The translations under genes were made by a program, and so were the position numbers. From an uncultured Candidatus Saccharibacteria bacterium (lineage in GTDB: Bacteria > Patescibacteriota > Minisyncoccia > 2-02-FULL-40-12 > GWA2-44-9): DNA of 64,000 bases. Every line of letters starts with the position of its first letter. Within the stretch, counting starts at the first letter, position 1. Location: assembly GCA_964513645.1 (NCBI GenBank), contig CAZENF010000002.1, forward strand, positions 73,409 to 137,408. Reading direction: 5' to 3'. Below, in pieces: positions 3,701 to 64,000 of this stretch. The notes beneath the pieces were generated by a model that saw only the letters and a list, made by a program, of their open reading frames with translations, made no database searches and had not been told where the DNA came from.

Positions 3701-4168
3701 GATGATATGCCAAACGCTTTCTATATAGTTATTCTCATAGGTTATGTATGGATGGTCGAGGTCAAGCCAAAAACCCATTTTCCTGGTCATGTCTTCCCAT
3801 TCGGTCTTATATTTCCAGACACTCGCTTTAGCCTTCTTGTTGAATTTTCCTATTCCGTAATCTTCGATATCTTTCTTTTTCTTAAAACCAAGTTCTTTTT
3901 CTATTTCTATTTCGACGGGTAAGCCGTGCGTATCCCAACCGGCCTTACGCAAAACAAAAAAGCCCTGCATGGTCTTATAGCGACAGATAAGGTCCTTGAA
4001 AGCGCGAGCTAAAAGATGGTGGATGCCCGGCCGACCGTTGGCAGTCGGTGGTCCTTCAAAAAAAACGAACCTTTTGCCTTTCTTCCTGTTCTCTAATGAT
4101 TTTTGAAAAGTATCGTTATTGCGCCAAAATTCGAGTATTTTATGCTCTGTTCCTTTAAAATCGTACAT
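716..4168 (-). CDS. ileS: Isoleucine--tRNA ligase, type-2 (eukaryote/archaea-like), with a histidine-phosphatase-like insertion
   Basis: HIGH-type motif PGIHHLLARA, KMSKSKGN, a CP1 editing domain, and the type-2 signatures SRERYWGTPLP, C-x2-C, DLHRPYID and DVWFDSG. The track ORF extends to 4237, but the conserved N-terminus MYDFKGTEHKILEFW begins at the ATG 4166-4168. The upstream 69 nt is read-through of a hairpin element that re-creates an in-frame ATG at 4235-4237. Confidence 0.9.
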   Translation of the reverse strand: MYDFKGTEHKILEFWRNNDTFQKSLENRKKGKRFVFFEGPPTANGRPGIHHLLARAFKDLICRYKTMQGFFVLRKAGWDTHGLPVEIEIEKELGFKKKKDIEDYGIGKFNKKAKASVWKYKTEWEDMTRKMGFWLDLDHPYITYENNYIESVWHIIRQIWDKKLLYQAHKVVPFCVRCGTSLSSHEVAQGYKKVKEKSVYIKFKVKTGNSHVKRGDYILAWTTTPWTLPGNVALAVGKNIDYVLVRKFSENLVIAKDLIQKVLGSDYEVVGEFKGKDLAGLIYEPLFDIKELKSNTSYQVYEAGFVSTEDGTGVVHTAVMYGEEDYVLGTKLGLPKVHTVDEQGRFTGVGQDLDGMLVKSKDKPTEEKTTSKIIEYLNKNNLLFKEEEYEHDYPFCWRCDSPLLYYAKNSWFIKMSAVNKEIMANNQKINWVPENIKEGRFGQWLAEGKDWAFSRERYWGTPLPAWKCQKCGDVKVVGSVEEMEKLSASDPVKNNRYIVLRHGYTTRDEAGKMIISSDLKLDKYHLTKEGEKQAERNAQKIKNNYDIDLIFSSPFLRTAETAEIVSKTLHLKVTSDERLREISHGSCDGLPHKVCSVEDLRRTIDFKAHVTGESWNDVRTRMSDFMQEMENKYSGKNILIVSHGDPLWILTCMGKGMTGREIEDNARKDNYPGVAFCGEMKWRKIPRNEIGELDLHRPYIDSVSLKCDECGASMKKIADLIDVWFDSGAMPYAQWHWPFENKKMFEEQFPADFIVEAVDQTRGWFYTLLAISTLLGKGSSYKNVMSLGHVLDDKGKKMSKSKGNVVSPFEVMDKVGADAARWYFYTLNQPGEYKLFAMKDVEAKLKGFISTLENCVRFYELYGEGSKNFTHTSKTSNLLDKWIISRLNVLIAEVTTALDKYDPTTATRAIEKFTVEDLSNWWLRRSRKRKEALGLLKFLILETAKLIAPFTPFVSEEIFHNLKSKTSVHLEDWPKADKKLIDVKLEKEMEEARNVIASGLAVRKEKQLKVRQPLRSAITKRTSKFSKDIESLVKEELNVKGLTYDAKQESGITFDTVLDKALIHEGYARELMRQLQDMRKEAKYRLDEKVLGHWHSEDKDIIEAVEQWTEEIKKDVLLEKFESGPANKKYDIEKEFELAPQKKIWIGVTK

Positions 4169-4287
4169 CCCGTTAGAAGTAGCCCGCCCGAGGTCATTGA
4201 CCGCGTAAGCGCGGGCGAGACTTCTAACGGGATACATCCAATAATTATAAATTATCCAGAGGAAAATTCAACTAAAACCTGGACTAT

Positions 4288-5961
4288 TTACATCTTTTTT
4301 GGCGCCGAGATCCCCATCAGAGAAAGGCATTCGCCAATAACAATAGCTATCGCCGAACATAAAGCTACTCTGGCCTTTTCTATTTTTTTGTCATCCCCGC
4401 CTGCTCGCCTCGCTGAAGCATCGGCGGAGCGGACCGGCGAAGCAGGATTTACAACTCTATGTTTCTCATAAAAATTATGGAACTCCGAAGCCAGTTCAAA
4501 GGCATATTGAGCCAAGCGGTGGGCCTGATAGTTAAGAGCTATTTCTTCTATCAATTCCGGGAACTTTGACATTTTCCGCATCAACCCAAATTCTTCTTTT
4601 TCTTTCAAACCCTCGAACACAGAAGGGTCATTTTTGGGTCTAAGTTCAGTAAGGTTTAATTTTCCAAAAATACTGTTAAGCCGGGCGTTAGCATACTGAA
4701 TGTAATAGACTGGGTTCTTTTTCGATTCTTCCTTGGCCAAGTCAACATCAAATTCCATATGAGTATTGAGATCCTTGACCAGAAAAAAATACCGGACAGC
4801 ATCCTTGCCAACCTCTTTAAAAAGTTCATCCAAAAGAACGAACTCCCCTTTTCTTTTGGACATCTTTTGTTTTTCTCCTCCGGCTTTCAAGGAAACCAGC
4901 TGGTGGAGAAGTATCTCAAGTTTGCCGTCTTCGTAGCCCAAGGCTCTGACTCCGGCCTTTAAGCGGTGTACATCGCCGTGATGGTCGGTTCCCCAAATAT
5001 TTATCGCTTTTCCGAAACCACGAATAAATTTATTCCTGGTATAGGAAATGTCGGCCATAAGGTACGAGTAGGATTTGTCGCTTTTGACCAATACCGCATC
5101 GCGTTCACCTGAATCATCTATCTTTAGCCATTCCGCACCTTCTTTTTCATAAACATGCTCGCCTTTTTTGAGCATCTTTAAAGTGTTATCGATTTCGCCC
5201 GAGTCATATAATTTTTTCTCGGAGAACCAGGTATCAAAATCTATATTAAGTTTCGACAAAGAAGCTTTGGCGGAATCGATCATTTTTTTCAATGCAAACT
5301 CGCGGCAAACAGATGTCAGTTCGTCGAAATTCTCTATGTCTTTGACCAAACCCTTATCATCCATCTCTTTGGCGACATCGATGATATATTCTCCCTGGTA
5401 AAGATTGTCAGGAAAATCTATGGTTTTTCCTTTTAAGCGAAGGTAGCGGCGGGCAACTGATTCACCCAATAGCTTAACCTGGTTCCCGGCATCATTGATG
5501 TAATATTCTTTTGTTATCTCGTAGCCGTATTTTTTAAAGATTGCGGCCAGAGTATCACCGAAAGCTGCCGCCCGGATGTTAGCAACCGTTAAGGGACCGG
5601 TGGGGTTGGCAGAAACAAATTCAAGATTTATGCTTAATTTTTTATTTTCTCCTGAACCATAATTTTCTTTTTGTTCCAGTATCTTAACCAGTTCTTGCCT
5701 TAAAAAATCTTCAGATAAGTAAAAATTAACAAAACCGTCGGCGGGTTCTATTTTGCTGAAATATTTGCTTAATTCTTTATTTTCTAAAAATTCTTCAGCT
5801 AAACGACCAGCTACATCCTTAGGATGCTGTTTCTCTTTTTTAGCCAATACAAAAGCAAGATTTATGGAATAATCCCCCATTTCATTGTTTGGCGGGGTCA
5901 GAACATCAAAATCAACACCAGGATAGAGTTCTTTAATCTTGTTTTCTATCCACATTTTCAT
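4288..5961 (-). CDS. argS: Arginine--tRNA ligase
   Basis: Arg_tRNA_synt_N-like N-terminus, core NPTGPL motif and a C-terminal DALR-type anticodon-binding end (…LSLMGISAPKKM). KMSKRKG is present. The HIGH position reads TVAN instead of H-x-G-H. A C-terminal in-frame insert lies at 4391-4446. Confidence 0.9.
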   Translation of the reverse strand: MKMWIENKIKELYPGVDFDVLTPPNNEMGDYSINLAFVLAKKEKQHPKDVAGRLAEEFLENKELSKYFSKIEPADGFVNFYLSEDFLRQELVKILEQKENYGSGENKKLSINLEFVSANPTGPLTVANIRAAAFGDTLAAIFKKYGYEITKEYYINDAGNQVKLLGESVARRYLRLKGKTIDFPDNLYQGEYIIDVAKEMDDKGLVKDIENFDELTSVCREFALKKMIDSAKASLSKLNIDFDTWFSEKKLYDSGEIDNTLKMLKKGEHVYEKEGAEWLKIDDSGERDAVLVKSDKSYSYLMADISYTRNKFIRGFGKAINIWGTDHHGDVHRLKAGVRALGYEDGKLEILLHQLVSLKAGGEKQKMSKRKGEFVLLDELFKEVGKDAVRYFFLVKDLNTHMEFDVDLAKEESKKNPVYYIQYANARLNSIFGKLNLTELRPKNDPSVFEGLKEKEEFGLMRKMSKFPELIEEIALNYQAHRLAQYAFELASEFHNFYEKHRVVNPASPVRSADASARRAGGDDKKIEKARVALCSAIAIVIGECLSLMGISAPKKM

Positions 5962-9105: not shown

Positions 9106-9455
9106 GGGGATGACGGGATTCGACAAGGTTCGTTCCAAATTATCTGCAAGTAATGGATGGGTATCACCATTTAAATCATTATCCAAATTCATAATTGCCA
9201 AAAACAATTATTCATCTGCTTTAGCTTTTGCTTAACAGACGTTCTCTCATTGATTCTCGCTATTTGAAGAGGGCGCCATCAGCGGGATACTGTTTGCGGG
9301 GTCTTGGTGAGTTCTAAGCCGTAGATAGGAAAATTAATTAGAATTCTGGCTTGGCATTTTTGCTAATTTCAAAGCCGAGCAATAAAAAATTAGCTAAACT
9401 TGTAGACTATAATTTGATAAAACTTTGCACGGCGGTTCAACTCTGCCCATCTCCA
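9106..9455 (+). ncRNA. ssrA: tmRNA (ssrA), with predicted tag peptide (A)KNNYSSALAFA
   Basis: The 5' end GGGGATGACGGGATTCGACAAGG is an acceptor/tRNA-like start. An internal ORF GCC AAA AAC AAT TAT TCA TCT GCT TTA GCT TTT GCT TAA runs 9197-9235. The 3' end has a T-arm GGCGG-TTCAACT-CTGCC, then CATCTCC pairing with the 5' GGGGATG, and discriminator A at 9455. No CCA is encoded. The gene sits directly after smpB. Confidence 0.7.
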
Positions 9456-9739: not shown

Positions 9740-10030
9740 ATGGCCCTTCTGCCAGAAGTTGTTAATCTTACTCCTTCGAGGAAGAAATTACTTGAACAGT
9801 TGCATGATGGCCGGTGGCATCACAAATTCCCCGGAATAGGAATCAGGACCTTCGACCTGATGAGTATCCTGGATTTTATAGATGTAAAATTTTCATCCAA
9901 GAACCCTGATAAAACCAATAACTGGAAAGTTAAAGCAAGGATTACTCAAAAAGGCAGGTTCCTGCTCAAGAACAAAAAAGCCACGATAGTATACGGGAGA
10001 GATGTCGCAATCAGAGAAATGGGCGTTTAA
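9740..10030 (+). CDS. Hypothetical small basic protein
   Basis: ORF only. It is followed by a hairpin plus T-run at 10029-10056. No motif recognised. Confidence 0.3.
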   Translation: MALLPEVVNLTPSRKKLLEQLHDGRWHHKFPGIGIRTFDLMSILDFIDVKFSSKNPDKTNNWKVKARITQKGRFLLKNKKATIVYGRDVAIREMGV

Positions 10031-10051: not shown

Positions 10052-10774
10052 TTATTTAAAATATTTCTCCCAGAAATCTGGGCATTTAATTTTGAGTTTT
10101 ATAACTTCGTCTGTAGTTGCAGTTCGGAATTCTATTTCCGTCGCGCAAAGCGCGACGGAGTTGTCTTGAGTTTTTTCTTTACTGCCGTATTTTGAATCCC
10201 CGACTAAGGGATGCCCGGTGTGCGAAAATTGCGCTCTTATCTGATGGAATCTGCCGGTTATAAGTTTTATTTTCAGTAGAGAATAATTTTTATTTGATCT
10301 CACGACCTCGTATTCAAGTTCCGACATTTCATAATTTTCTTTGGCCGAATCCGAAACCGATGCCTTTCGGATGTTCTCATTCTTTGCCAGATAATGAATA
10401 AGTTTTCCTTTTTTCGACTCTAACTCTCCTTCGGCAACGGCATAATATATTTTTTGTATTTCGTTATCTCTGAATTGTTCAGATAATCTTGAAGCACCTT
10501 TTGAAGTTTTACCGAAAAGCACTATACCTGATACGTTCCGGTCGAGACGATGAACAAGGCCGAGAAACACGTTCCCGGGCTTTTTATATTTTTGTTTAAG
10601 ATATTCCTTAACCTTGTCGAGCAGACTCTTATCCCCGGTTTTGTCTCCCCCGTCTGCTCGCCTCGCTGAGGCTTCGCCGGATCGAGACAACGAGGCAGGC
10701 TGAACAAGTAAACCAGCCGGCTTATACACCGCAATTATGTGGTTATCTTCGTAGAGTATATTTAATTTAGACAT
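10052..10774 (-). CDS. RluA-family pseudouridine synthase
   Basis: VYKPAGLLVQ…LVHRLDRNVSGIVLFGKT contains the catalytic Asp motif HRLDxxTSG. An 18-aa in-frame insert (PASLSRSGEASARRADGGD) is encoded by the GC-rich element at 10644-10699. Confidence 0.8.
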   Translation of the reverse strand: MSKLNILYEDNHIIAVYKPAGLLVQPASLSRSGEASARRADGGDKTGDKSLLDKVKEYLKQKYKKPGNVFLGLVHRLDRNVSGIVLFGKTSKGASRLSEQFRDNEIQKIYYAVAEGELESKKGKLIHYLAKNENIRKASVSDSAKENYEMSELEYEVVRSNKNYSLLKIKLITGRFHQIRAQFSHTGHPLVGDSKYGSKEKTQDNSVALCATEIEFRTATTDEVIKLKIKCPDFWEKYFK

Positions 10775-12465: not shown

Positions 12466-12487
12466 TGATTAATTATACCATTTTTAA

Positions 12488-12516
12488 CTAAAAACGCCCC
12501 GAAGGGCGTTTTTAGT
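12488..12516 (-). terminator. Rho-independent terminator downstream of pilin copy 1
   Basis: aaaaacgcccc-gaag-ggcgttttt, a perfect hairpin plus T-run. Confidence 0.6.
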
Positions 12517-12526
12517 TAAAACATTA

Positions 12527-12979
12527 TTAACGAGTAACAGATATAGGCGTGGTGATCTCGGCTCCAGGAGCGTCGACAGTTATTCTGCCTCCGCCTGCCG
12601 CTTGCATTATCCTGTATCCGGTATCGGCCGCCGTTCCTGTTGAGGGGTCCATGACCATGGTTGAAACATAGGTCGGGACGATGCATGAAGCAAGGTCAAT
12701 GTTGCCGGCTCCTGAACCGACTGCGGTCAAGGCAGCAGGCAATGTGACGGTTACAGCACCGCAGGTTGAACTCCAGACTCCTTTGTTATCAACCATTCTT
12801 TGCCAAACACCATTTAAAATAGTGTTGACGTTGGAAACTCTCTGGGTATCGCGGGCTTGGGCAAACTGTCTGGCCGGGTTCAAAGCAACGATAACCACGG
12901 CTGCCAAGATGGCGATAATACCGATAACGACCAAAATTTCTATAAGGGTGAATCCTGACTGTTTATTGTAATTTTTCAT
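12527..12979 (-). CDS. Type IV major pilin (PilA-like), copy 1
   Basis: N-terminal class III signal QSGFTLIEILVVIGIIAILAAVV (G|FTLIE prepilin cleavage and N-methylation motif). Confidence 0.8.
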   Translation of the reverse strand: MKNYNKQSGFTLIEILVVIGIIAILAAVVIVALNPARQFAQARDTQRVSNVNTILNGVWQRMVDNKGVWSSTCGAVTVTLPAALTAVGSGAGNIDLASCIVPTYVSTMVMDPSTGTAADTGYRIMQAAGGGRITVDAPGAEITTPISVTR

Positions 12980-13107
12980 TTGCGAAATGATTTAAAATGA
13001 TTTTGTTTAAAGACACTATCCGCTCAAGCGCTTTCGAGCAGATAATCGACCTCCAGTAGTAATTGTAACACCGAAAAATCATATAACTAAGATCGTTATC
13101 AACAAAA

Positions 13108-13137
13108 CTAAAACGTCCCAATCGGGGCGTTTTAGTT
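13108..13137 (-). terminator. Rho-independent terminator downstream of pilin copy 2
   Basis: aaaacgtccc-aatc-ggggcgtttt plus T-run. Confidence 0.5.
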
Positions 13138-13151
13138 TTATAAGAGAGATA

Positions 13152-13604
13152 TTACCTGGTAACAGTTATCGGGGTGGTAATTTCAGCACTCGGTGCATCA
13201 ACGGTAATTCTACCGCCTCCGGCCGCTTGCATAATACGGTAGCCGGTGTTAGCCGCCGTTCCTGTTGAGGGGTCCATGACCATGGTTGAAACATAGGTCG
13301 GGACGATGCATGAAGCAAGGTCAATGTTGCCGGCTCCTGAACCGACTGCGGTCAAGGCAGCAGGCAATGTGACGGTTACAGCACCGCAGGTTGAACTCCA
13401 GACTCCTTTGTTATCAACCATTCTTTGCCAAACACCATTTAAAATAGTGTTGACGTTGGAAACTCTCTGGGTATCGCGGGCTTGGGCAAACTGTCTGGCC
13501 GGGTTCAAAGCAACGATAACCACGGCTGCCAAGATGGCGATAATACCGATAACGACCAAAATTTCTATAAGGGTGAATCCTGACTGTTTATTGTAATTTT
13601 TCAT
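13152..13604 (-). CDS. Type IV major pilin, copy 2 (tandem duplicate)
   Basis: Identical to copy 1 except for 3 aa (D/N, G/S, S/T). The 625 bp duplicated unit includes the upstream region. Confidence 0.8.
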   Translation of the reverse strand: MKNYNKQSGFTLIEILVVIGIIAILAAVVIVALNPARQFAQARDTQRVSNVNTILNGVWQRMVDNKGVWSSTCGAVTVTLPAALTAVGSGAGNIDLASCIVPTYVSTMVMDPSTGTAANTGYRIMQAAGGGRITVDAPSAEITTPITVTR

Positions 13605-34683: not shown

Positions 34684-35004
34684 CTGATCCTCGCAATTTA
34701 AGTTAGCTTTAAGATTATAAAGGAATATGAGTTGTGTGTCAATGGATATGGCCGACGGGATTTGGCTACAAGTTTGAATCTCATCGGATCACTCGACTCA
34801 ACTCGTGGCCTCTCACGGTTTAAATCTGCTGACCGAAACATCGCTTCGGTTTTAAAATCCCGTACGCAAGAACTCAAATCCTCGCTCGGAGCCCCCCCCC
34901 TCTCTAAAAGCAGAATCAAAACCACCCATTGCAGGTGGTTTTGATAGGATGCGCACCTCGGTCTACTGGCCTCGGTACTTCCTCACTCATCTTTCGGTCG
35001 CAGC

Positions 35005-35130
35005 GCCAATAGACCCGTCTTGACTCGGTCGATCCGAGGCGGACCCGTCTCGCCAAAGGCGAAGCCGAGGCGGAGAACACTGGAAAACTTTGTTACTGGA
35101 TATCTATAGTTATTTTATCAGAAACCCGCA
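35005..35130. repeat. Composite GC-rich intergenic repeat, copy A
   Basis: Shares gccaatagacccgtcttgactcggtcgatccgaggcggaccc(g/a)tctcgccaaaggc… with copy B. Shares gagaacactggaaaactttgtt…ctatagttattttat with copy C. Internal palindrome ctcggtcgatccgag. Confidence 0.7.
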
Positions 35131-35230: not shown

Positions 35231-35635
35231 TTAGGGCTGTTTTTTCTTAAAATTTACCTGAGTAATTGCTTCAAACAAATTATTAAAGACATCTTCATCA
35301 AGTATGCCGACTTTATTGGCTAATCTTTTACGGTCTATAAACCTGACCTGCGACAAAATAGCTGTTGCCTCTCTGCCGTCAACTTCTCCCACAACAAAAT
35401 AATACTTACCCTTCTTTTTTGTTGTAGTTAGGGGCACAATAAGACAAGCGTCTAAGTTAAATTTCTTTATTATAACTACTGGCCTTTGAAAATCTTTACC
35501 TGTTCCGTCTTGTTCAAAACCAATATTGACTCCGAGCGAACACCACCAGACTTCCCTCTCGTGAAAAAATACCTCGCTTTTTCGAACATCAAGATTTTCT
35601 TTAATGCCATGCCACTTCTTAAAATCTTTATTCAT
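35231..35635 (-). CDS. mazF: MazF/PemK-family endoribonuclease toxin
   Basis: …REVWWCSLGVNIGFEQDG…RPVVII…SQVRFIDRKRLANKVGILDEDVFNNLFEAI is closely parallel to the NdoA/MazF pattern …EQIRTIDKQRLTDKIT.LDDEMM.KVDEAL. The start is chosen at MNKDFKKW. The track ORF extends to 35794 by reading through repeat copy B. Confidence 0.7.
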   Translation of the reverse strand: MNKDFKKWHGIKENLDVRKSEVFFHEREVWWCSLGVNIGFEQDGTGKDFQRPVVIIKKFNLDACLIVPLTTTKKKGKYYFVVGEVDGREATAILSQVRFIDRKRLANKVGILDEDVFNNLFEAITQVNFKKKQP

Positions 35636-35681
35636 TCCGTTATTAAAACAAAAACTGGATTTAATTACCAGTTTTATCGGG

Positions 35682-35865
35682 CCAATAGACCCGTCTTGAC
35701 TCGGTCGATCCGAGGCGGACCCATCTCGCCAAAGGCCAGCTTCAACCCAATGAGACAAGCGAAGCCGAGGCGGAGAACACTGCCTGCCCGCCAAAGCCTT
35801 GGCGTAGGCGGGGAAAACTTTGTTAATACGGATTCATACATATTGTATTAGAAATCCATTGAATA
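35682..35865. repeat. Composite GC-rich intergenic repeat, copy B
   Basis: Same modules as copy A, plus an inserted block cctgcccgccaaagccttggc that is the reverse complement of a block in copy C. Confidence 0.7.
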
Positions 35866-36763: not shown

Positions 36764-36880
36764 GACCCCGCCTGTGCCAAGGCTTTGGCGGGCAGGCATT
36801 CTCCTTGAGCAGGGCCAATAGAGAACACTGGAAAACTTTGTTCCGGGAGCTCTATAGTTATTTTATTAGGAATCCCTTTG
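36764..36880. repeat. Composite GC-rich intergenic repeat, copy C
   Basis: gccaaggctttggcgggcagg…gggccaatagagaacactggaaaactttgtt…ctatagttattttat. Confidence 0.7.
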
Positions 36881-39956: not shown

Positions 39957-42122
39957 ATGTCAATCGAACTGCCAAAAGCCTATAATCCTGGAGAAACCGA
40001 AGAAAAAATTTATAAACTCTGGGAAGAGTCCGGTTTTTTTGATCCGGACAAATTGCCAAGGGGCCGCAAAAAACCTTACACGATAATTATGCCTCCACCC
40101 AACGCCAATGCACCACTACACGTTGGTCATGCTTTGGGCTTTGCGATTCAAGATATTCTTATCCGCTATCACCGGATGAAAGGCTTCCAAACTCTCTGGC
40201 TGCCGGGTACCGATCATGCCGGATTTGAAACCCAGGTTGTTTTTGAAAAGTATCTTGAGAAGAATGGTAAGAGCCGCTTCAATATGACCCGAGAAGAATT
40301 CTACAAAGAGTGCTGGGATTTTGTTCAGAACAACAAGCACATCAGCGAGAACGGCATGAAGCGCTTGGGTGCATCTTGCGACTGGTCAAGAAATATTTTT
40401 ACTCTTGACCCGGAAGTGATCAAAGTAGTTTATTCTACCTTTAAAAAAATGTATAACGACGGCCTGGTTTATCGATCCGGCCGAATATCTAATTGGTGTC
40501 CCAAGCATCAGACGGGCCTGGCCGACCTTGAAACAAAATATGAAGAAAGAACGGAGCCGTTTTATTATTTCAAATACGGGCCTTTTATTATTGGTACTTC
40601 CCGACCTGAAACAAAATTCGGGGACAAATACGTCGTAATGCATCCGGACGACAAAAGATACAAGGATTACAAGGAAGGAGATAAATTCAAGCTCGAATGG
40701 ATTAACGGCCCGGTTGAAGCAACCGTCATTAAGGATGAGGTGATAGACATGTCCTTCGGCACCGGCGTTATGACCATTACTCCGGCTCATGACCCTGTTG
40801 ACTTTGAAATAGCCCAGCGCCACAAACTTGATGTTGAAAAAGTTATAGACGCCAGGGGGAAATTATTGCCGATTGCCGGAGAATTCGCAGGAATGAAAAT
40901 ACTCGAGGCCCGACCGAAAATAGTTGAAAAACTTAAATCAAAAGGTCTGCTTGAAAAAATAGACGAGAATTATAAGCACAGCGTCAAACTCTGCTACAAG
41001 TGCGGCAATCTTATCGAACCCCAGATAGTTGAACAGTGGTATATTAAAATGACCGAAAAATTAAAAGACGAGCGGCCATCGTTGCGAGATATGGCCGTTC
41101 AGACGGTTGAATCAGGTGAAGTAAAGTTTAACTCGGAAAGATTTTATAATCTTTTCATGAGCTGGATGAAAGAGCTCCGTGACTGGCCGATAAGCCGCCA
41201 GATATGGTGGGGAATTCCCATACCCGTCAAATATTGCGACAAGTGTTCTAAAACTTTTGTCGATACAGAGAACAAAATAAACAAATGCTCGAATTGTAAC
41301 GGCGAATTAAGAAACGACCCGGATACATTTGATACCTGGTTCTCTTCGGGTCAATGGCCGTATGCGACATTGATGGCCAATGACGCAAAGAATAAGAGCA
41401 AAGATTTTGACACATTTTTCCCGACCCAAGTCATGGAAACTGGCTGGGATATAATATTTTTCTGGGTTGCACGGATGATAATGCTTTCGTTCTACAGCAC
41501 CGGCAAAAAACCTTTCGAGAACGTAGTCCTTCACGGCTTGGTCAGAGATAAGGATCGCCAGAAGATGTCCAAATCCAAAGGCAACGTCATCGACCCTCTT
41601 GGCGTCATCGACACTTATGGCTCGGACGCACTTCGCTTTGCTCTGGTATTTTCTACAGCGGCCGGAAACGACATTCCTCTCTCGGAAGACAAGATAAAAG
41701 GCATGCAGCACTTTGCCAACAAACTCTGGAACATCGCCCGCTTCATACTTATGGACAATACGGCTGAGGTCATGGAAAAAACGCCTGAAGCTCTAACCAA
41801 GGCCGACCAAGAAATTTTAACTGCTTTGAAAACAGAAACAGAAGCGATAACCAAAAATCTTGAGATATTTAATTTTCACCAGGCCGCCCAAGAAATATAT
41901 CAGTTCGCCTGGCACAACTTTGCCGATATTTATCTTGAAGCATCCAAACCCCAGCTCAAGGACAACAAACAGAAAGAAAATACCCAGAAGATACTTCTCT
42001 ATACCTTATCACAAATCCTCAAACTCCTTCATCCTTTCATGCCTTTCGTGACTGAAGAACTCTGGTCAAAACTGCCCATGAAAAATAAAGGGCTTCTGAT
42101 TGTTGAAGAGTGGCCCCGATAG
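39957..42122 (+). CDS. valS: Valine--tRNA ligase (short form lacking C-terminal coiled coil)
   Basis: PPPNANAPLHVGHA, WLPGTDHAGFETQ (ValS-type), editing-domain motifs (TSRPETKFGD, GTGVMTITPAHDPVD), and KMSKSKGNVIDP. Confidence 0.85.
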   Translation: MSIELPKAYNPGETEEKIYKLWEESGFFDPDKLPRGRKKPYTIIMPPPNANAPLHVGHALGFAIQDILIRYHRMKGFQTLWLPGTDHAGFETQVVFEKYLEKNGKSRFNMTREEFYKECWDFVQNNKHISENGMKRLGASCDWSRNIFTLDPEVIKVVYSTFKKMYNDGLVYRSGRISNWCPKHQTGLADLETKYEERTEPFYYFKYGPFIIGTSRPETKFGDKYVVMHPDDKRYKDYKEGDKFKLEWINGPVEATVIKDEVIDMSFGTGVMTITPAHDPVDFEIAQRHKLDVEKVIDARGKLLPIAGEFAGMKILEARPKIVEKLKSKGLLEKIDENYKHSVKLCYKCGNLIEPQIVEQWYIKMTEKLKDERPSLRDMAVQTVESGEVKFNSERFYNLFMSWMKELRDWPISRQIWWGIPIPVKYCDKCSKTFVDTENKINKCSNCNGELRNDPDTFDTWFSSGQWPYATLMANDAKNKSKDFDTFFPTQVMETGWDIIFFWVARMIMLSFYSTGKKPFENVVLHGLVRDKDRQKMSKSKGNVIDPLGVIDTYGSDALRFALVFSTAAGNDIPLSEDKIKGMQHFANKLWNIARFILMDNTAEVMEKTPEALTKADQEILTALKTETEAITKNLEIFNFHQAAQEIYQFAWHNFADIYLEASKPQLKDNKQKENTQKILLYTLSQILKLLHPFMPFVTEELWSKLPMKNKGLLIVEEWPR

Positions 42123-42172
42123 AAGTAAAGCGACCGCATCACTCTTTAAATGAGGAAATATCGGTTATGCGG

Positions 42173-42202
42173 ACTTCTAACGGGGCTTGCCTCGTTAGAA
42201 GT
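42173..42202. repeat. Hairpin element ACTTCTAACGGGG-cttg-CCTCGTTAGAAGT directly upstream of prsW
   Basis: Same half-site family as 4169-4231. It overlaps an extended -10 (TGtTATAAT at 42202-42210). Confidence 0.55.
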
Positions 42203-44858: not shown

Positions 44859-45284
44859 TTAGACGTTGAAGAACTGGGTCCAGTTGACCAATGAGGCCAA
44901 GGTCTGGAGGATCAAACCGACAGCCAAGACTACCAAGGCGCCAATGATACCATTGACGATCCTCGATTTGGCTGCACCTGATTTTGATGAATCATCTCCA
45001 GCGGACATATAGCTGATACCGCCCCAAACAATGAATATAACGGCGATAACGACGCTGACAAATATCAGAAACCGTGCAATCGTCGTAATAACACCCTGGA
45101 TATCAAGCAACGTGACAGGTGCTCCGGCATAAGGTGATGTGGGAGTCGGCAATCCCTGGGCCAAGACAAATGCGGGTAATAAAGCTAAGGCTGTCGCGAT
45201 GGAAACTTTCGCTACTCTGTTTAATTTCAAACTAATACACCTCCGTTCATTTTTTTGTTTTATTTCTACTATTTTATTATACAA
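44859..45284 (-). CDS. TrbC/VirB2-like pilin-fold protein (P1)
   Basis: Signal peptide, then helix-AGDD..K.GAAKSRIVNGIIG-helix architecture. Paralog of P2 at about 75% identity. Confidence 0.6.
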   Translation of the reverse strand: MYNKIVEIKQKNERRCISLKLNRVAKVSIATALALLPAFVLAQGLPTPTSPYAGAPVTLLDIQGVITTIARFLIFVSVVIAVIFIVWGGISYMSAGDDSSKSGAAKSRIVNGIIGALVVLAVGLILQTLASLVNWTQFFNV

Positions 45285-61268: not shown

Positions 61269-62138
61269 TTGTTCCCTGACAAAAACCCGCCGGATGAGAG
61301 TGGAGTTAAGCCAATGGAGAAGCGTCCGAGAGCTGACGATTTTATCAGAAAAATAAAAAATCCTGACCTATTTGTTCCAGACCCGGATAAAGATTTTGGC
61401 ATGTTCCAACAGATGGATATTGCTTTCGAAGGCATCCACGATAAGCTTGATGAATTGCGGCGCAATCACGGCCGCCTGGGTTACAGTGCCCAGAATTTGA
61501 TGAGCGACCTTAGTAAATCCTACATCGAAGCGGCTCAATTTGATGATGAAGAAGCCATGGCCTGGGCAGAAAAGGGCATGACAGAACTTACTGAAGGGTT
61601 CAGTGAAGCAAGTCTGAATGACCAGCTCGCTGAAACCGGAAACAGGTTCAGCCGGACAATTTGGCAAGAACAGCTTGAGGCAGGTTTATTCGGAAAAGTC
61701 TGGCCCGTCATCACAGGAAAGAACGATCAAATACCGTCACTTATTTCCTGGAAAGATTTTCGTGGAAATATCCAGGCTTATTTATATGCCTATCTCGATG
61801 TGGTGAGTGAGCCTGCTAAAGCTTTGACTAACGAACTTTCCAAACCAGAAATGACGTCGAGTGTCGAGTTCATGATACTCGAAAGATACCTTGCCATTGC
61901 CGACTCCATCACCTTGCGGCTTTCTTTAGAACGCCATATTCCCGGCTATGTTATCAATAACGCTTACGGTCCTTGGGCTGCTTACACAAACAAGCTTCGG
62001 ACAGCATACGGAACAATTGCCCATGTCCGCCGGGAGTATAATTTGCGCCGTAGTATTCAGCGAATGAACCGCCAACTGTTATTGGATATTGAGGAAATGT
62101 TCCTGAAAACACTCTTAAAACTCAAAGAACCGGTTTAG
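61269..62138 (+). CDS. Hypothetical protein
   Basis: ORF followed by a strong terminator at 62164-62188. No motif recognised. Confidence 0.35.
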   Translation: MFPDKNPPDESGVKPMEKRPRADDFIRKIKNPDLFVPDPDKDFGMFQQMDIAFEGIHDKLDELRRNHGRLGYSAQNLMSDLSKSYIEAAQFDDEEAMAWAEKGMTELTEGFSEASLNDQLAETGNRFSRTIWQEQLEAGLFGKVWPVITGKNDQIPSLISWKDFRGNIQAYLYAYLDVVSEPAKALTNELSKPEMTSSVEFMILERYLAIADSITLRLSLERHIPGYVINNAYGPWAAYTNKLRTAYGTIAHVRREYNLRRSIQRMNRQLLLDIEEMFLKTLLKLKEPV

Positions 62139-62163
62139 CTACCTTGTTCTGCTCCAATATATC

Positions 62164-62188
62164 AAGGCCCCCTCGAAAGGGGCCTTTT
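62164..62188 (+). terminator. Rho-independent terminator
   Basis: aaggcccc-ctcgaaa-ggggcctttt. Confidence 0.6.
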
Positions 62189-62190
62189 AC

Positions 62191-62219
62191 TTGACAAAAT
62201 ATCCAGATTTTGATAGAAT
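62191..62219 (+). promoter_or_regulatory. Near-consensus sigma70-type promoter (TTGACA-N17-TAGAAT) for the GC-rich gene
   Basis: TTGACA at 62191-62196, a 17 nt spacer, TAGAAT at 62214-62219. AGGAG lies 9 nt upstream of the ATG at 62290. Confidence 0.5.
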
Positions 62220-62289
62220 ATTGTGCAGAGTAGGTTTAGTACCTTCAAATCACATCGTTTCGTCAACTCGTTCATCAGGAGAAATTGTC

Positions 62290-64000
62290 ATGGACAACAC
62301 AATGAGAGAAGCGCTCGGAAACATTGTCACGACTGCCCCCCAGCGGCAACACCGAACCCGTCAAGGAAGTTCGGTGCGAGCAAACCCGCCACTATCAACG
62401 ACCGCGCAGCGGACACCCGAAGACGTTCTCCGGGATCTCCGCGAGAACAAAGTCAAGGAGGCAAACGCCAAGGCCGCCGCAGAAGAGACCGAGGAATCAC
62501 GGGCCAGGCACGACATGGTGATCGAATCCGTCGCCGAACTCATCTACGCGGATCAGGACCTGACGGTCAGAGCCGCAGAGCTCGACCGGAAAAGGAAGAG
62601 CTACGCACGCGGTTCCGTTCAAGATGGTGAGATCGCGAAGAACATCGACCAGGTCGCCGACGACCGAAAGATCGTTTCCGCCGCACTCGGCAAGATCAAA
62701 GCCGAAAATCTCTTGGCCTATGAGGATGGCCAACAGCGGTACAACGTCCGCCAAGCCGCCCTCGCTGCCGAGGAGAAGATTCGTCAACACGGCGAAGTCA
62801 AGGCGGCAGACATCGAACAGTTTGTTTCAAGCGCCGTCCTTTCTGGCTTCATCGTCGTCCCAACGGCCGAAGACAAGCCGTGCGAAGCGTCGTTCACGTT
62901 CAGGCATCAGTCGTACCAGTCGGCCTGGCCGTATGACCCTTCGGTTTCCGAAGTCGCCTTCAGCTTGAAGAAGATGATTGCCGACTTTCATCAGCACATG
63001 GAAGACCGTGAAGACACCATCGTCGGCGAACTGCGCCACGGCGGCTTCTACCTCTCGACCCAACGTCTCCCCCGGAACCCCAACAAGCCGGACGGAGATA
63101 AACTCGATTCCGAGTTTGACCTCTTCAAGAGAGAGAACCGGAAACGAATCGTCCGTCTGTCGACCCTTCTCGGAAGAACCAACGACAGCGACATTTCGAT
63201 CGTTCCGTTGGGCCGTCCGCGGAGCTTCGTTGTCATCGAGCGGCGCGACGGCAAAATCGTCGCCTCAAAGACGACCGACTACCGTTTCGGCAACTTCCTT
63301 TTCTACCGAAGAAACAACCAGGATCAGCGGGTCGTCAAGACCGAGCCGGTGAACTTGTACATCACGGGCGCAGACCTGTCCGAGATGAAGATAGATGAGC
63401 TCCGTCAGGCCATGGAACACCAGGTCCGGACCGAAACAGAAAACATCACCTTCGAAGAACTGCGGAGCGGCCGCAAAGGAACGTGTTCGGTTTCCGTCCA
63501 TTGGAAGGTCCGGGACGAGCAAGGAGTGACGGTGAAGATTCCCATCAGATTCAACCTGACCGGGGACGGCGCCGGAACTTTCGTTCGTACCGGAAACACC
63601 CCGGAACACCTCATCAAGAGGGTTGATCCCAAGGGTTACTGGCTCGCCAAGACCGGTCAACCCCAGAAGCTCGACGTCCTGAACAGCCTGCCTGTCTGGG
63701 GCGCCTTATCCGGCGAGAACAAGCAGCACGAACGTGACTGGCAGCTCTCGAACGAAGCTGAAGTCCAGAATGCGGTCCGCGTTTCAAAGGAAAACCTGGA
63801 CGAGCTCATCGGCCTCGACAGCCGGGACGGTCTGTACAGCGTTTCCGCGGTTCTCCGAAAGACAGTCGGTGGTGGCAAGGGTAAGCCCAACTACCACTAC
63901 AACCCCGTCGGTTACCTCATCGCACGGCGTGGTTCGAAGGTCGAGATCGTCTGGGCAGTGCCCGGAACCTCGGCCAACTTCGCCAGCCAGCTCACCGGTG
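62290..64000 (+). CDS. Partial (3' end beyond window) hypothetical protein encoded in a high-GC segment
   Basis: Absent from the ORF track because it has no stop in the window. Own frame-1 translation is stop-free for 570 codons and reads as a balanced globular protein (MDNTMREALGNIVTTAPQ…ESVAELIYADQDLTVRAAELDRKRKSY…IVWAVPGTSANFASQLTG). All competing-frame ORFs listed for this region are R/S/P/T-rich low-complexity sequences typical of high-GC shadow frames. Confidence 0.55.
   Translation, partial: MDNTMREALGNIVTTAPQRQHRTRQGSSVRANPPLSTTAQRTPEDVLRDLRENKVKEANAKAAAEETEESRARHDMVIESVAELIYADQDLTVRAAELDRKRKSYARGSVQDGEIAKNIDQVADDRKIVSAALGKIKAENLLAYEDGQQRYNVRQAALAAEEKIRQHGEVKAADIEQFVSSAVLSGFIVVPTAEDKPCEASFTFRHQSYQSAWPYDPSVSEVAFSLKKMIADFHQHMEDREDTIVGELRHGGFYLSTQRLPRNPNKPDGDKLDSEFDLFKRENRKRIVRLSTLLGRTNDSDISIVPLGRPRSFVVIERRDGKIVASKTTDYRFGNFLFYRRNNQDQRVVKTEPVNLYITGADLSEMKIDELRQAMEHQVRTETENITFEELRSGRKGTCSVSVHWKVRDEQGVTVKIPIRFNLTGDGAGTFVRTGNTPEHLIKRVDPKGYWLAKTGQPQKLDVLNSLPVWGALSGENKQHERDWQLSNEAEVQNAVRVSKENLDELIGLDSRDGLYSVSAVLRKTVGGGKGKPNYHYNPVGYLIARRGSKVEIVWAVPGTSANFASQLTG

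What the first reader, a model, noticed from the sequence alone, without database searches (positions are those of the whole stretch)
4391..4446. The same 56 bp GC-rich palindromic element inserted in-frame into argS and the rluA-like gene (RPE-like coding insertion)
argS 4391-4446 (tcatccccgcctgctcgcctcgctgaagcatcggcggagcggaccggcgaagcagg) and the rluA-like gene 10644-10699 (tctcccccgtctgctcgcctcgctgaggcttcgccggatcgagacaacgaggcagg) are about 75% identical. Both are about 60% GC in a 40% GC background. Both can form a hairpin (CTGCTCGCCTCG…CGAGGCAGG). In both genes the element is translated in the same frame as PAS(P/L)(V/S)RS(A/G)(D/E)ASARRA(G/D)GGD. It sits where homologs of ArgS (between the last helix and the KIEKARVAL C-terminus) and of RluA (just after the PAGLLV motif) have no such segment. 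This resembles the Rickettsia palindromic elements, which invade coding sequences in-frame. I am not aware of this in these lineages.
Basis: seen in the sequence. Interest (0 to 1): 0.7.

Follow-up and report, generated by a model that had tools for sequence, protein, structure and literature searches.

The report
Hairpin repeat inserted in-frame in genes
Two essential genes of an uncultured ultra-small (CPR/Patescibacteria) bacterium each carry, in frame, a 51-base copy of a GC-rich hairpin repeat that also occurs in more than 140 places in many other uncultured bacteria, so this looks like selfish DNA of the Rickettsia type in a group where I found no report of it.

Summary
Window 4396-4446 (in argS) and 10649-10699 (in an RluA-family gene) are two 51-nt copies of one element. 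They are 40/51 identical and 69-75% GC in a 43.5% GC window. Both are read in the same frame as a 17-residue A/S/R/G-rich peptide. Most ArgS and RluA orthologues lack the segment, including a syntenic relative that lacks both. An empty RluA site shows a precise 51-nt insertion with no target duplication. AlphaFold models put each insert in the only very-low-confidence segment of an otherwise confident fold.

The element is not private to this genome. Pattern scans found more than 140 copies in low-GC genomes and metagenomes, in many CPR phyla and in MAGs labelled Elusimicrobia, Omnitrophota, WOR-3 and Bdellovibrionales. A profile built from foreign copies alone recovers both window copies. About a third of copies lie in frame inside long ORFs (RpoB, TopA, DnaG, PheT and others), in both orientations and in five frames.

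Only a ~35-nt core is conserved; the outer stems vary. There was no Rfam, plasmid or phage match, no linked transposase, and no paper found for these lineages. Verdict: the RPE-like reading is supported. It is a new family of a known kind, and how it moves is unknown.

The parts
4396..4446 (+). Copy 1 of the 51-nt GC-rich hairpin element. The element's reference strand is +; the host gene is on -. It is translated as PASPVRSADASARRAGG, residues ~507-523 of ArgS.
   Evidence: It is 47/51 identical to a copy in another Patescibacteria MAG (L106). Family HMM E=9e-11. AF2 pLDDT<50 only at residues 507-522.
10649..10699 (+). Copy 2 of the same element, more decayed. It is translated as PASLSRSGEASARRADG, residues 26-42 of the RluA-family protein.
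   Evidence: An empty-site orthologue (L244) reads GTT CAA|GGA GAT against the window's GTT CAG|51 nt|GGA GAC. Family HMM E=2.7e-4. AF2 pLDDT<50 only at residues 30-43.
4288..5961 (-). Host gene 1: arginine--tRNA ligase (557 aa). The insert lies between the last two helices of the C-terminal DALR anticodon-binding domain.
   Evidence: (Pfam PF03485, PF00750, PF05746).
10052..10774 (-). Host gene 2: RluA-family pseudouridine synthase (240 aa). The insert follows the KPAGLLVQ strand.
   Evidence: (PF00849).
35783..35812 (+). Sister 30-nt GC-rich hairpin (CCTGCCCGCCAAAGCCTTGGCGTAGGCGGG) with termini similar to the main element. It is the filled site of a filled/empty pair inside the window; the empty site is at 35082|35083.
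   Evidence: Alignment A5: a clean 30-nt insertion in one of two copies of a duplicated ~90-nt segment, with no target duplication.
36767..36796 (-). Second copy of the sister 30-nt hairpin, in inverted orientation.
   Evidence: exact 21-mer in two places, 0.01 expected by chance.

Best explanation
The two segments are independent insertions of a short, non-autonomous, GC-rich hairpin-forming repeat, a selfish palindromic element. It landed inside two unrelated housekeeping genes of a CPR/Patescibacteria bacterium. Each insertion added exactly 51 nt with no stop codon, so the reading frame survived. The element is most probably translated as a 17-residue disordered surface loop that the enzyme tolerates. 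The DNA hairpin has since decayed by point mutation. The element belongs to a large family whose ~35-nt core (G-CTCGCCTCGCTGAAGC-TYY-GGCGAAGCGGG) is shared by copies in many uncultured low-GC phyla. The GC-rich outer stem arms differ between subfamilies.

Shown: repeat family membership; precise insertion without target-site duplication; absence from most orthologues; in-frame occupancy of many conserved genes elsewhere; predicted loop location.

Inferred: translation of the insert, neutrality, and the mode of movement. My best guess for movement is mobilisation in trans as a single-stranded DNA hairpin, as for REP or IS200/IS605-type elements, which also leave no duplication. No enzyme was identified, so this step is weak (about 0.3). 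The confidence given (0.8) is for the insertion-of-a-repeat-element reading as a whole, not for the mode of movement.
For: Two copies with an exact 16-mer and 40/51 identity. Each is closer to a foreign copy (47/51 and 42/51 to L106) than to the other, as expected for descent from a master sequence. Independent family HMM hits at E=9e-11 and 2.7e-4. Orthologues lack the segment, and a syntenic relative lacks both. The empty-site DNA shows a precise 51-nt gain and no duplication. A sister hairpin shows a clean filled/empty pair inside the window. Of 143 copies, 50 lie 40 or more codons deep in ORFs, in both orientations and five frames. Nine of ten tested host ORFs are conserved proteins: RpoB, TopA, DnaG, PheT, P-type ATPase, class II aldolase, PilM, a sensor protein and a DUF11-domain protein. 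The consensus folds at z=-4.4. Flanks of the same copy are more complementary to each other than to flanks of other copies (p=1.5e-8). AF2 gives the insert as the only segment below pLDDT 50 in both proteins.
Against: Only two copies occur in 64 kb, so activity in this genome is not shown. No transposase or other shared neighbouring gene was found in 0.9 Mb of element-bearing DNA. The hairpins of the two window copies are not better than shuffles. Translation is not demonstrated. The same RluA codon boundary holds different hairpins in other orthologues. That could mean one old insertion later remodelled, rather than repeated insertion. High conservation of a 35-nt core across phyla is unusual for a purely selfish repeat and hints at a constraint I cannot name.
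Confidence: 0.8

Rival explanations
1. The conserved core is a functional nucleic-acid signal kept by selection, and the coding copies are incidental. The signal could be an RNA hairpin such as a REP-like mRNA stabiliser or terminator, or a DNA site bound by a conserved host or mobile-element protein.
For: About half of the copies are non-coding. The 35-nt core is nearly invariant while the flanks vary. The consensus is a strong hairpin. The core contains GCGAAGC, which I recall as a very stable DNA mini-hairpin (own knowledge, not tested here).
Against: Copies occur in both orientations relative to host genes, at roughly the 3:2 ratio expected from the number of open frames. No T-tract follows the hairpin. 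No Rfam family matches. Core invariance is partly forced by the search patterns used. The two window copies have lost hairpin quality, which argues against selection on structure here.
Confidence: 0.1
2. A DNA uptake or recombination signal. CPR bacteria depend on scavenged DNA, and such signals are tolerated in coding DNA in all frames.
For: Cross-phylum sharing of a short core, and presence in coding and non-coding DNA in both orientations.
Against: Density is far too low (2 per 64 kb). Known uptake sequences are 9-12 nt cores at roughly one per kb (own knowledge). The hairpin architecture and variable stems do not fit.
Confidence: 0.04
3. The insert is removed or skipped during expression (a mini-intron, or translational bypass as in T4 gene 60 or yeast mitochondrial byp elements), so the protein lacks it.
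For: It is a GC-rich structured insert in an AT-rich gene, which superficially resembles byp elements (own knowledge).
Against: Both inserts are exact multiples of three, stop-free and in frame. Bypass and intron elements have no such requirement. The family uses five frames and both orientations inside ORFs. No ribozyme or intron family matches.
Confidence: 0.04
4. An ancestral or convergent low-complexity protein segment, or a chance resemblance.
For: A/S/R/G-rich linkers are common. A few orthologues carry something at the same site.
Against: The DNA-level identity includes a 16-mer. There are family HMM hits. Most orthologues lack it. The same DNA occurs in non-coding places and in other frames.
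Confidence: 0.02

Closest known systems
Rickettsia palindromic elements (RPE; Ogata et al. 2000, 2002, as summarised in PMC10969869)
   Same: A repeated palindromic DNA that sits in frame inside unrelated housekeeping genes without destroying them. It adds a peptide at a position compatible with the fold, also occurs between genes, and decays after insertion.
   Different: RPEs are described as ~150 bp (PMC10969869), against 51 nt (17 aa) here, and are described in Rickettsia. This family is strongly GC-rich in an AT-rich genome. It is spread over many phyla and has a short conserved core with variable stems. Sequence relatedness to RPEs was not tested and is not expected.
REP / BIME repeats and intragenic REPs (GTAG- or CGTC-tagged; RAYT transposases; PMC3733652)
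   Same: Short imperfect palindromes. I recall REPs as leaving no target duplication (own knowledge). Most are extragenic, but some are in frame in genes, notably replication and repair genes.
   Different: The ends carry no GTAG or CGTC tag. No Y1/RAYT gene was seen. REP families are usually specific to a species or genus, whereas this core is shared across phyla.
Bacterial MITEs (Correia, ERIC, BOX, Nezha; PMC10969869)
   Same: Non-autonomous elements with inverted arms that can create in-frame fusions.
   Different: MITEs make target-site duplications and are usually 100-400 bp. No duplication is seen here. A true MITE with 13-nt terminal repeats and a 4-nt duplication does co-exist in this window (4168-4232), which shows the contrast directly.
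GC clusters of yeast mitochondrial DNA (own knowledge, not checked here)
   Same: 30-50 nt GC-rich palindromic mobile elements in an AT-rich genome, occasionally in frame in a coding gene (var1).
   Different: They are organellar, unrelated in sequence, and have flanking short duplications.

Membership tests
Rickettsia palindromic elements (RPE) | Repeated palindromic sequence inserted in frame in unrelated protein-coding genes, leaving the ORF intact | tested here: met
   the wider family.
Rickettsia palindromic elements (RPE) | Insert falls at a surface or loop position compatible with the fold | tested here: met
   AF2 models: the only segments with pLDDT<50 are residues 507-522 of ArgS and 30-43 of RluA. 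This is a prediction, not an experiment.
Rickettsia palindromic elements (RPE) | Length of about 150 bp (PMC10969869) and occurrence in Rickettsia | tested here: not met
   The element is 51 nt. The host is CPR/Patescibacteria by best named ArgS and RluA hits.
Rickettsia palindromic elements (RPE) | Sequence homology to one of the RPE consensus families | not tested
   No RPE sequences were available in the tools used.
REP / BIME (RAYT-associated) | Short imperfect palindrome present in many copies | tested here: met
   The consensus folds at z=-4.4. More than 140 copies across genomes, but only 2 in this 64-kb window.
REP / BIME (RAYT-associated) | Conserved GTAG or CGTC tetranucleotide at one end (PMC3733652) | tested here: not met
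   The ends are CC(T/C)GCC... and ...GGCAGG in the window's subfamily. Flank positions outside the core carry almost no information.
REP / BIME (RAYT-associated) | A cognate Y1 (RAYT/IS200-like) transposase gene in the genome | tested here: inconclusive
   tblastn with an IS200 TnpA sequence written from memory found nothing in 0.9 Mb of element-bearing loci plus the window. No shared neighbour gene was found. Whole genomes were not available.
MITE | Terminal inverted repeats | tested here: met
   The arms CCTGCCTGC and GCAGGCAGG in the consensus.
MITE | Target-site duplication flanking the element | tested here: not met
   RluA filled versus empty site, the sister hairpin filled/empty pair, and no consistent direct repeats in 20 subfamily copies.
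MITE | A related autonomous insertion sequence sharing the termini | tested here: inconclusive
   None was seen in the sampled loci. No full-genome search was possible.
Intein / intron / bypass element | Splicing motifs, or frame interruption that requires removal | tested here: not met
   The inserts are 17 codons, stop-free and in frame. No Rfam intron or ribozyme match.

The most novel reading that the evidence does not exclude
It behaves as a module that sits at the apex of otherwise unrelated GC-rich stems. The same stems (TTCCCGC..GCGGGAA, CCTGCC..GGCAGG) also occur with 0-9 nt loops. Different hairpin families occupy the very same codon boundary in RluA orthologues. Both window copies sit exactly in the centre of TTGT-N8-ACAA. 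Together this could mark an undescribed mechanism, with no transposase or a trans-acting one, that homes to small inverted repeats or hairpin tips and moves between phyla. Such a mechanism would continuously remodel essential proteins of CPR bacteria.
Probability: 0.2. Interest if true: 0.8.

Novelty: new member of a known kind. Interest (0 to 1): 0.55.

Why it matters
In-frame selfish palindromes are the textbook oddity of Rickettsia. This finding shows the same behaviour in the Candidate Phyla Radiation and neighbouring uncultured lineages, hitting core genes (ArgS, RluA, RpoB, TopA, DnaG, PheT, RplF, MiaA).

It offers a likely explanation for at least some of the short G/A/P/R/S-rich lineage-specific inserts that pepper CPR proteins. 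I also expect such repeats to yield spurious hypothetical ORFs. That is useful to know for annotation, alignment and phylogenomics of MAGs.

A 35-nt core that is nearly identical across phyla implies either a very broad mobilome link between these organisms or an unknown constraint. Either can be tested with existing metagenomes.

Tried and rejected
- Third copy in the window: blastn-short, a 2-sequence nhmmer model and a 132-copy family HMM all found none.
- Rfam on the window copy and on eight loci with consensus-like copies: no family.
- IMG/VR scan: three hits, all chance matches without extended similarity.
- GenBank phages: no match. PLSDB plasmids: one chance hit in Streptomyces.
- The genome scan was dominated by chance or genic hits in high-GC genomes such as Streptomyces, which I discarded because they show no similarity beyond the pattern.
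- The peptide search of the protein database failed twice. 
- Transposase hunt: tblastn with a from-memory IS200 TnpA found nothing, and clustering of 1,597 neighbouring ORFs gave no family shared by more than four loci.
- Target motif or target-site duplication in 20 subfamily copies: none is consistent. The L038 flanking direct repeat lies in a host tandem repeat, so I did not count it.
- DNA for the syntenic empty relative (P0127) and for P0123 could not be fetched. P0003, the short ArgS version, has no contig on record.
- The PVRS peptide shared by the ArgS insert and the PVRS..TSNG MITE is encoded by different codons, so I treat it as coincidence.

Full report
**Observation.** The 56-nt stretches are 43/56 identical and 71% and 68% GC in a 43.5% GC window. 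They share the exact 16-mer CTGCTCGCCTCGCTGA. Both lie in minus-strand ORFs: 4288..5961, a 557-aa arginine--tRNA ligase, and 10052..10774, a 240-aa RluA-family pseudouridine synthase (Pfam assignments). Both are read in the same frame, as ...VVN-PASPVRSADASARRAGG-DDKK... and ...LLVQ-PASLSRSGEASARRADG-GDKT.... No third copy exists in the window by blastn, by a two-sequence HMM or by a family HMM.

**Boundaries and lineage specificity.**
- ArgS: in an alignment of 28 orthologues (51-69% identical) the segment is absent from 26. One (P0003) has a shorter PASP--AGGD at the same place, and one (P0007) has an unrelated short insert there.
- RluA: in 30 orthologues, 16 read LLV-QGDKTGDKSL with nothing in between.
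- Synteny: a JGI contig with the same gene neighbourhood (IleS-like gene, 539-aa ArgS, 222-aa RluA) lacks both inserts.
- Empty site: DNA of an empty RluA orthologue reads GTT CAA|GGA GAT where the window reads GTT CAG|51 nt|GGA GAC.

The unit is therefore exactly 51 nt (10649-10699, and by the same codon logic 4396-4446), with no target-site duplication. The 51-nt copies are 40/51 identical to each other. They are 47/51 and 42/51 identical to a copy in an unrelated Patescibacteria MAG (L106). That pattern fits independent descent from a master sequence better than one copy seeding the other.

**A widespread family.** About 95 hits are in high-GC genomes and show no similarity beyond the pattern. 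About 22 hits are in low-GC genomes and share the whole element, with consensus CC(T/C)GCCTGCTCGCCTCGCTGAAGCTCCGGCGAAGCGGGCCGGCAGGCAGG. By record title the hosts are:
- CPR lineages: Yanofsky-, Saccharibacteria, Sungii-, Moranii-, Shapiro- and Lipton-bacteria, and "Patescibacteria group".
- MAGs labelled Elusimicrobia, Omnitrophota, WOR-3, Bdellovibrionales and Gammaproteobacteria.

I did not verify these labels. An HMM built from 132 of these foreign copies, with the window copies left out, recovers the argS copy at E=9e-11 and the rluA copy at E=2.7e-4. Nothing matches in Rfam, in IMG/VR beyond three chance hits, in GenBank phages, or in PLSDB plasmids beyond one chance hit.

**Coding habit of the family.** Of 143 copies:
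- 50 lie at least 40 codons deep on both sides inside an open frame;
- 19 lie at ORF edges;
- 74 lie in non-coding DNA.

Chance open frames of that depth should be rare in AT-rich DNA. The consensus is open in five of six frames, and all five are used, in both orientations. The peptides are PASPELQRGEQ, GPLRRSFSEAS, ARFAGASARRAG (the window's frame), LLASLKLRRSG and ARLAEAPAKRAG. Nine of ten tested host ORFs are conserved proteins with the insert inside or between their domains: RpoB, topoisomerase I, DnaG, PheT, a P-type ATPase, class II aldolase, PilM, a PAS/HAMP sensor and a DUF11-domain protein. By eye, the context sequences also look like ribosomal protein L6 and MiaA.

**Where the inserts sit in the proteins.** AlphaFold2 with the orthologue alignments gives confident models: mean pLDDT 85.8 for ArgS and 87.9 for RluA. 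In each model the only segment of three or more residues below pLDDT 50 coincides with the insert.
- ArgS: residues 507-522, between helices 481-500 and 522-549 of the C-terminal DALR anticodon-binding domain.
- RluA: residues 30-43, after the KPAGLLVQ strand.

This supports a tolerated, probably disordered surface loop, but it is only a prediction.

**Anatomy.** In the metagenome sample, positions outside the search pattern show that conservation is confined to about 35 nt: G-CTCGCCTCGCTGAAGC-TYY-GGCGAAGCGGG-Y-N-GG. Beyond -5 and +34 the information content falls to background, and 108 different 8-mers precede the core in 135 copies. Flanks of the same copy are nevertheless more complementary to each other than to flanks of other copies (-10.6 vs -8.0 kcal/mol, p=1.5e-8). 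Subfamilies with long outer stems exist (CCTGCCTG..CAGGCAGG, TGTCATTCCCGC..GCGGGAATGACA, TTCCGGAT..ATCCGGAA). These same stems also occur in the loci with loops of 0-9 nt, which gives a bimodal size distribution. The family therefore looks modular: a conserved apical core carried on variable stems. The consensus folds at -35.9 kcal/mol (z=-4.4), whereas the two window copies fold no better than shuffles. That fits decay after insertion.

**Other hairpin elements in the same genome and at the same sites.**
- The window holds a sister 30-nt hairpin, CCTGCCCGCCAAAGCCTTGGCGTAGGCGGG, at 35783-35812 and, inverted, at 36767-36796. The first copy is a clean insertion into one of two copies of a duplicated ~90-nt segment; the empty site is CACTG|GAAAAC at 35082/35083. 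This is a filled/empty pair inside the window, again without duplication.
- The RluA codon boundary used here is occupied in other orthologues by different hairpins: a 33-nt CCCGCCTCGCCGAAAACGGCGAGTCGAGGCGGG (L247), a 15-nt remnant (L245), and a larger element with 13-nt terminal repeats and a TTCA duplication (L246).
- That larger element is a conventional MITE. It is also present in the window between ileS and argS (4168-4232, terminal repeats TCCCGTTAGAAGT/ACTTCTAACGGGA, duplication TACA) and at about 42114-42185. It accounts for the PVRS...TSNG inserts in several ArgS and RluA orthologues.

The site is thus either an insertion hotspot or a place where only insertions survive. I cannot separate the two.

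**Unexplained detail.** Both window copies sit exactly in the middle of TTGT-N4|N4-ACAA. These flanks are host codons (V-Q and D-K in orthologues). The empty orthologue L244 does not have this motif. Other subfamily copies in other genomes do not show it either.

**Mechanism.**
- Shown: the segments are copies of a repeat family. They were gained precisely. They keep the frame. The family does this in many genes.
- Inferred: the inserts are translated, and they are neutral.
- Weakly inferred: the mode of movement. A hairpin with no target duplication fits single-strand, REP or IS200/IS605-like mobilisation in trans. However, no Y1 transposase was found with a from-memory query in 0.9 Mb, and no gene family is shared by more than four of the ~145 loci.
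- Rivals: a functional RNA or DNA signal, an uptake sequence, or removal at the RNA or translation level. They are less likely for the reasons listed under each rival.

**Comparison with what is known.** The behaviour matches the Rickettsia palindromic elements as summarised in PMC10969869, and the intragenic REPs described for several species in PMC3733652. Membership fails for each named family.
- RPE: wrong size and wrong host.
- REP: the GTAG/CGTC tag is absent.
- MITE: the target duplication is absent.

Seven full-text searches found no paper describing such elements in CPR/Patescibacteria. That is absence in the held library, not proof of novelty. I file this as a new family of a known kind. 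The cross-phylum core and the modular stems are the features that could make it more than that.

**Limits.**
- Only 64 kb of the source genome was available.
- The invariance of the core is partly imposed by the exact patterns used.
- Taxon labels are taken from record titles.
- The last protein search was wasted on a query the tool could not use.

Noticed in passing
window 4168-4232: An intergenic 65-nt element between the IleS-like ORF and argS. It has 13-nt terminal inverted repeats (TCCCGTTAGAAGT/ACTTCTAACGGGA) and a flanking TACA duplication, so it is a conventional MITE. The same family is inserted in frame (peptide PVRS...TSNG) in ArgS orthologues P0013 and P0014 and in RluA orthologues P0131, P0152, P0159 and P0201. 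In L246 it is flanked by a TTCA duplication.
   Followed up: partly
window 42114-42202: A second copy of that MITE (CCCGATAGAAGT...ACTTCTAACGGG), whose left repeat supplies the stop codon of the 721-aa ORF 39957..42122. It is followed by a solo terminal repeat at 42191-42202.
   Followed up: partly
window 34985-35115 and 35678-35835: A duplicated ~90-nt GC-rich segment flanking a PemK/MazF-like ORF (35231..35794, Pfam E=1.3e-11). The second copy carries two clean insertions, of 24 nt and 30 nt. The 30-nt one is the sister hairpin listed under parts.
   Followed up: partly
window 12527-12979 and 13152-13604: Two tandem minus-strand ORFs of 150 aa each, apparently a recent tandem duplication. 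Each is followed by a similar terminator-like hairpin (12482-12521 and 13104-13139). The syntenic relative has a 149-aa N_methyl (pilin-like) gene in this neighbourhood.
   Followed up: no
window 62000-64000: GC content jumps to 56% from about 43% at the right end of the window. The ORFs tested there (61269..62138, 62223..62630) have no Pfam match. This could be an island of foreign origin or an assembly join.
   Followed up: no
window 44859-45284: A small ORF matching type IV secretion pilin families (PF18895, E=7.6e-9; TrbC/VirB2 weaker), upstream of several very large minus-strand ORFs. This may be a conjugation-type secretion locus.
   Followed up: no
ArgS orthologues P0007, P0011, P0019, P0032, P0040 (alignment A2): Other lineage-specific G/A/P/R/S-rich inserts at other ArgS positions: SARGGPVSGGKD, (N/Y)PPEADQP(L/T)AGK, TEIPGFAREPYPRN, REAVGAPTKASEISN and TPHQADPLTAIKKGSGLGAGQ. 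They probably come from further hairpin families. Their DNA was not examined.
   Followed up: no
L129:2287-5241 (-): A DnaG primase ORF from a metagenome contig carries both an intein (Intein_splicing plus LAGLIDADG matches) and, further downstream, an in-frame copy of the hairpin element.
   Followed up: no
L163 (12.8-kb metagenome locus): A dense cluster of different GC-rich hairpins, including two core-bearing copies about 600 nt apart in opposite orientation (9153-9180 and 9791-9818) and several CCCGCC..GGCGGG hairpins.
   Followed up: no
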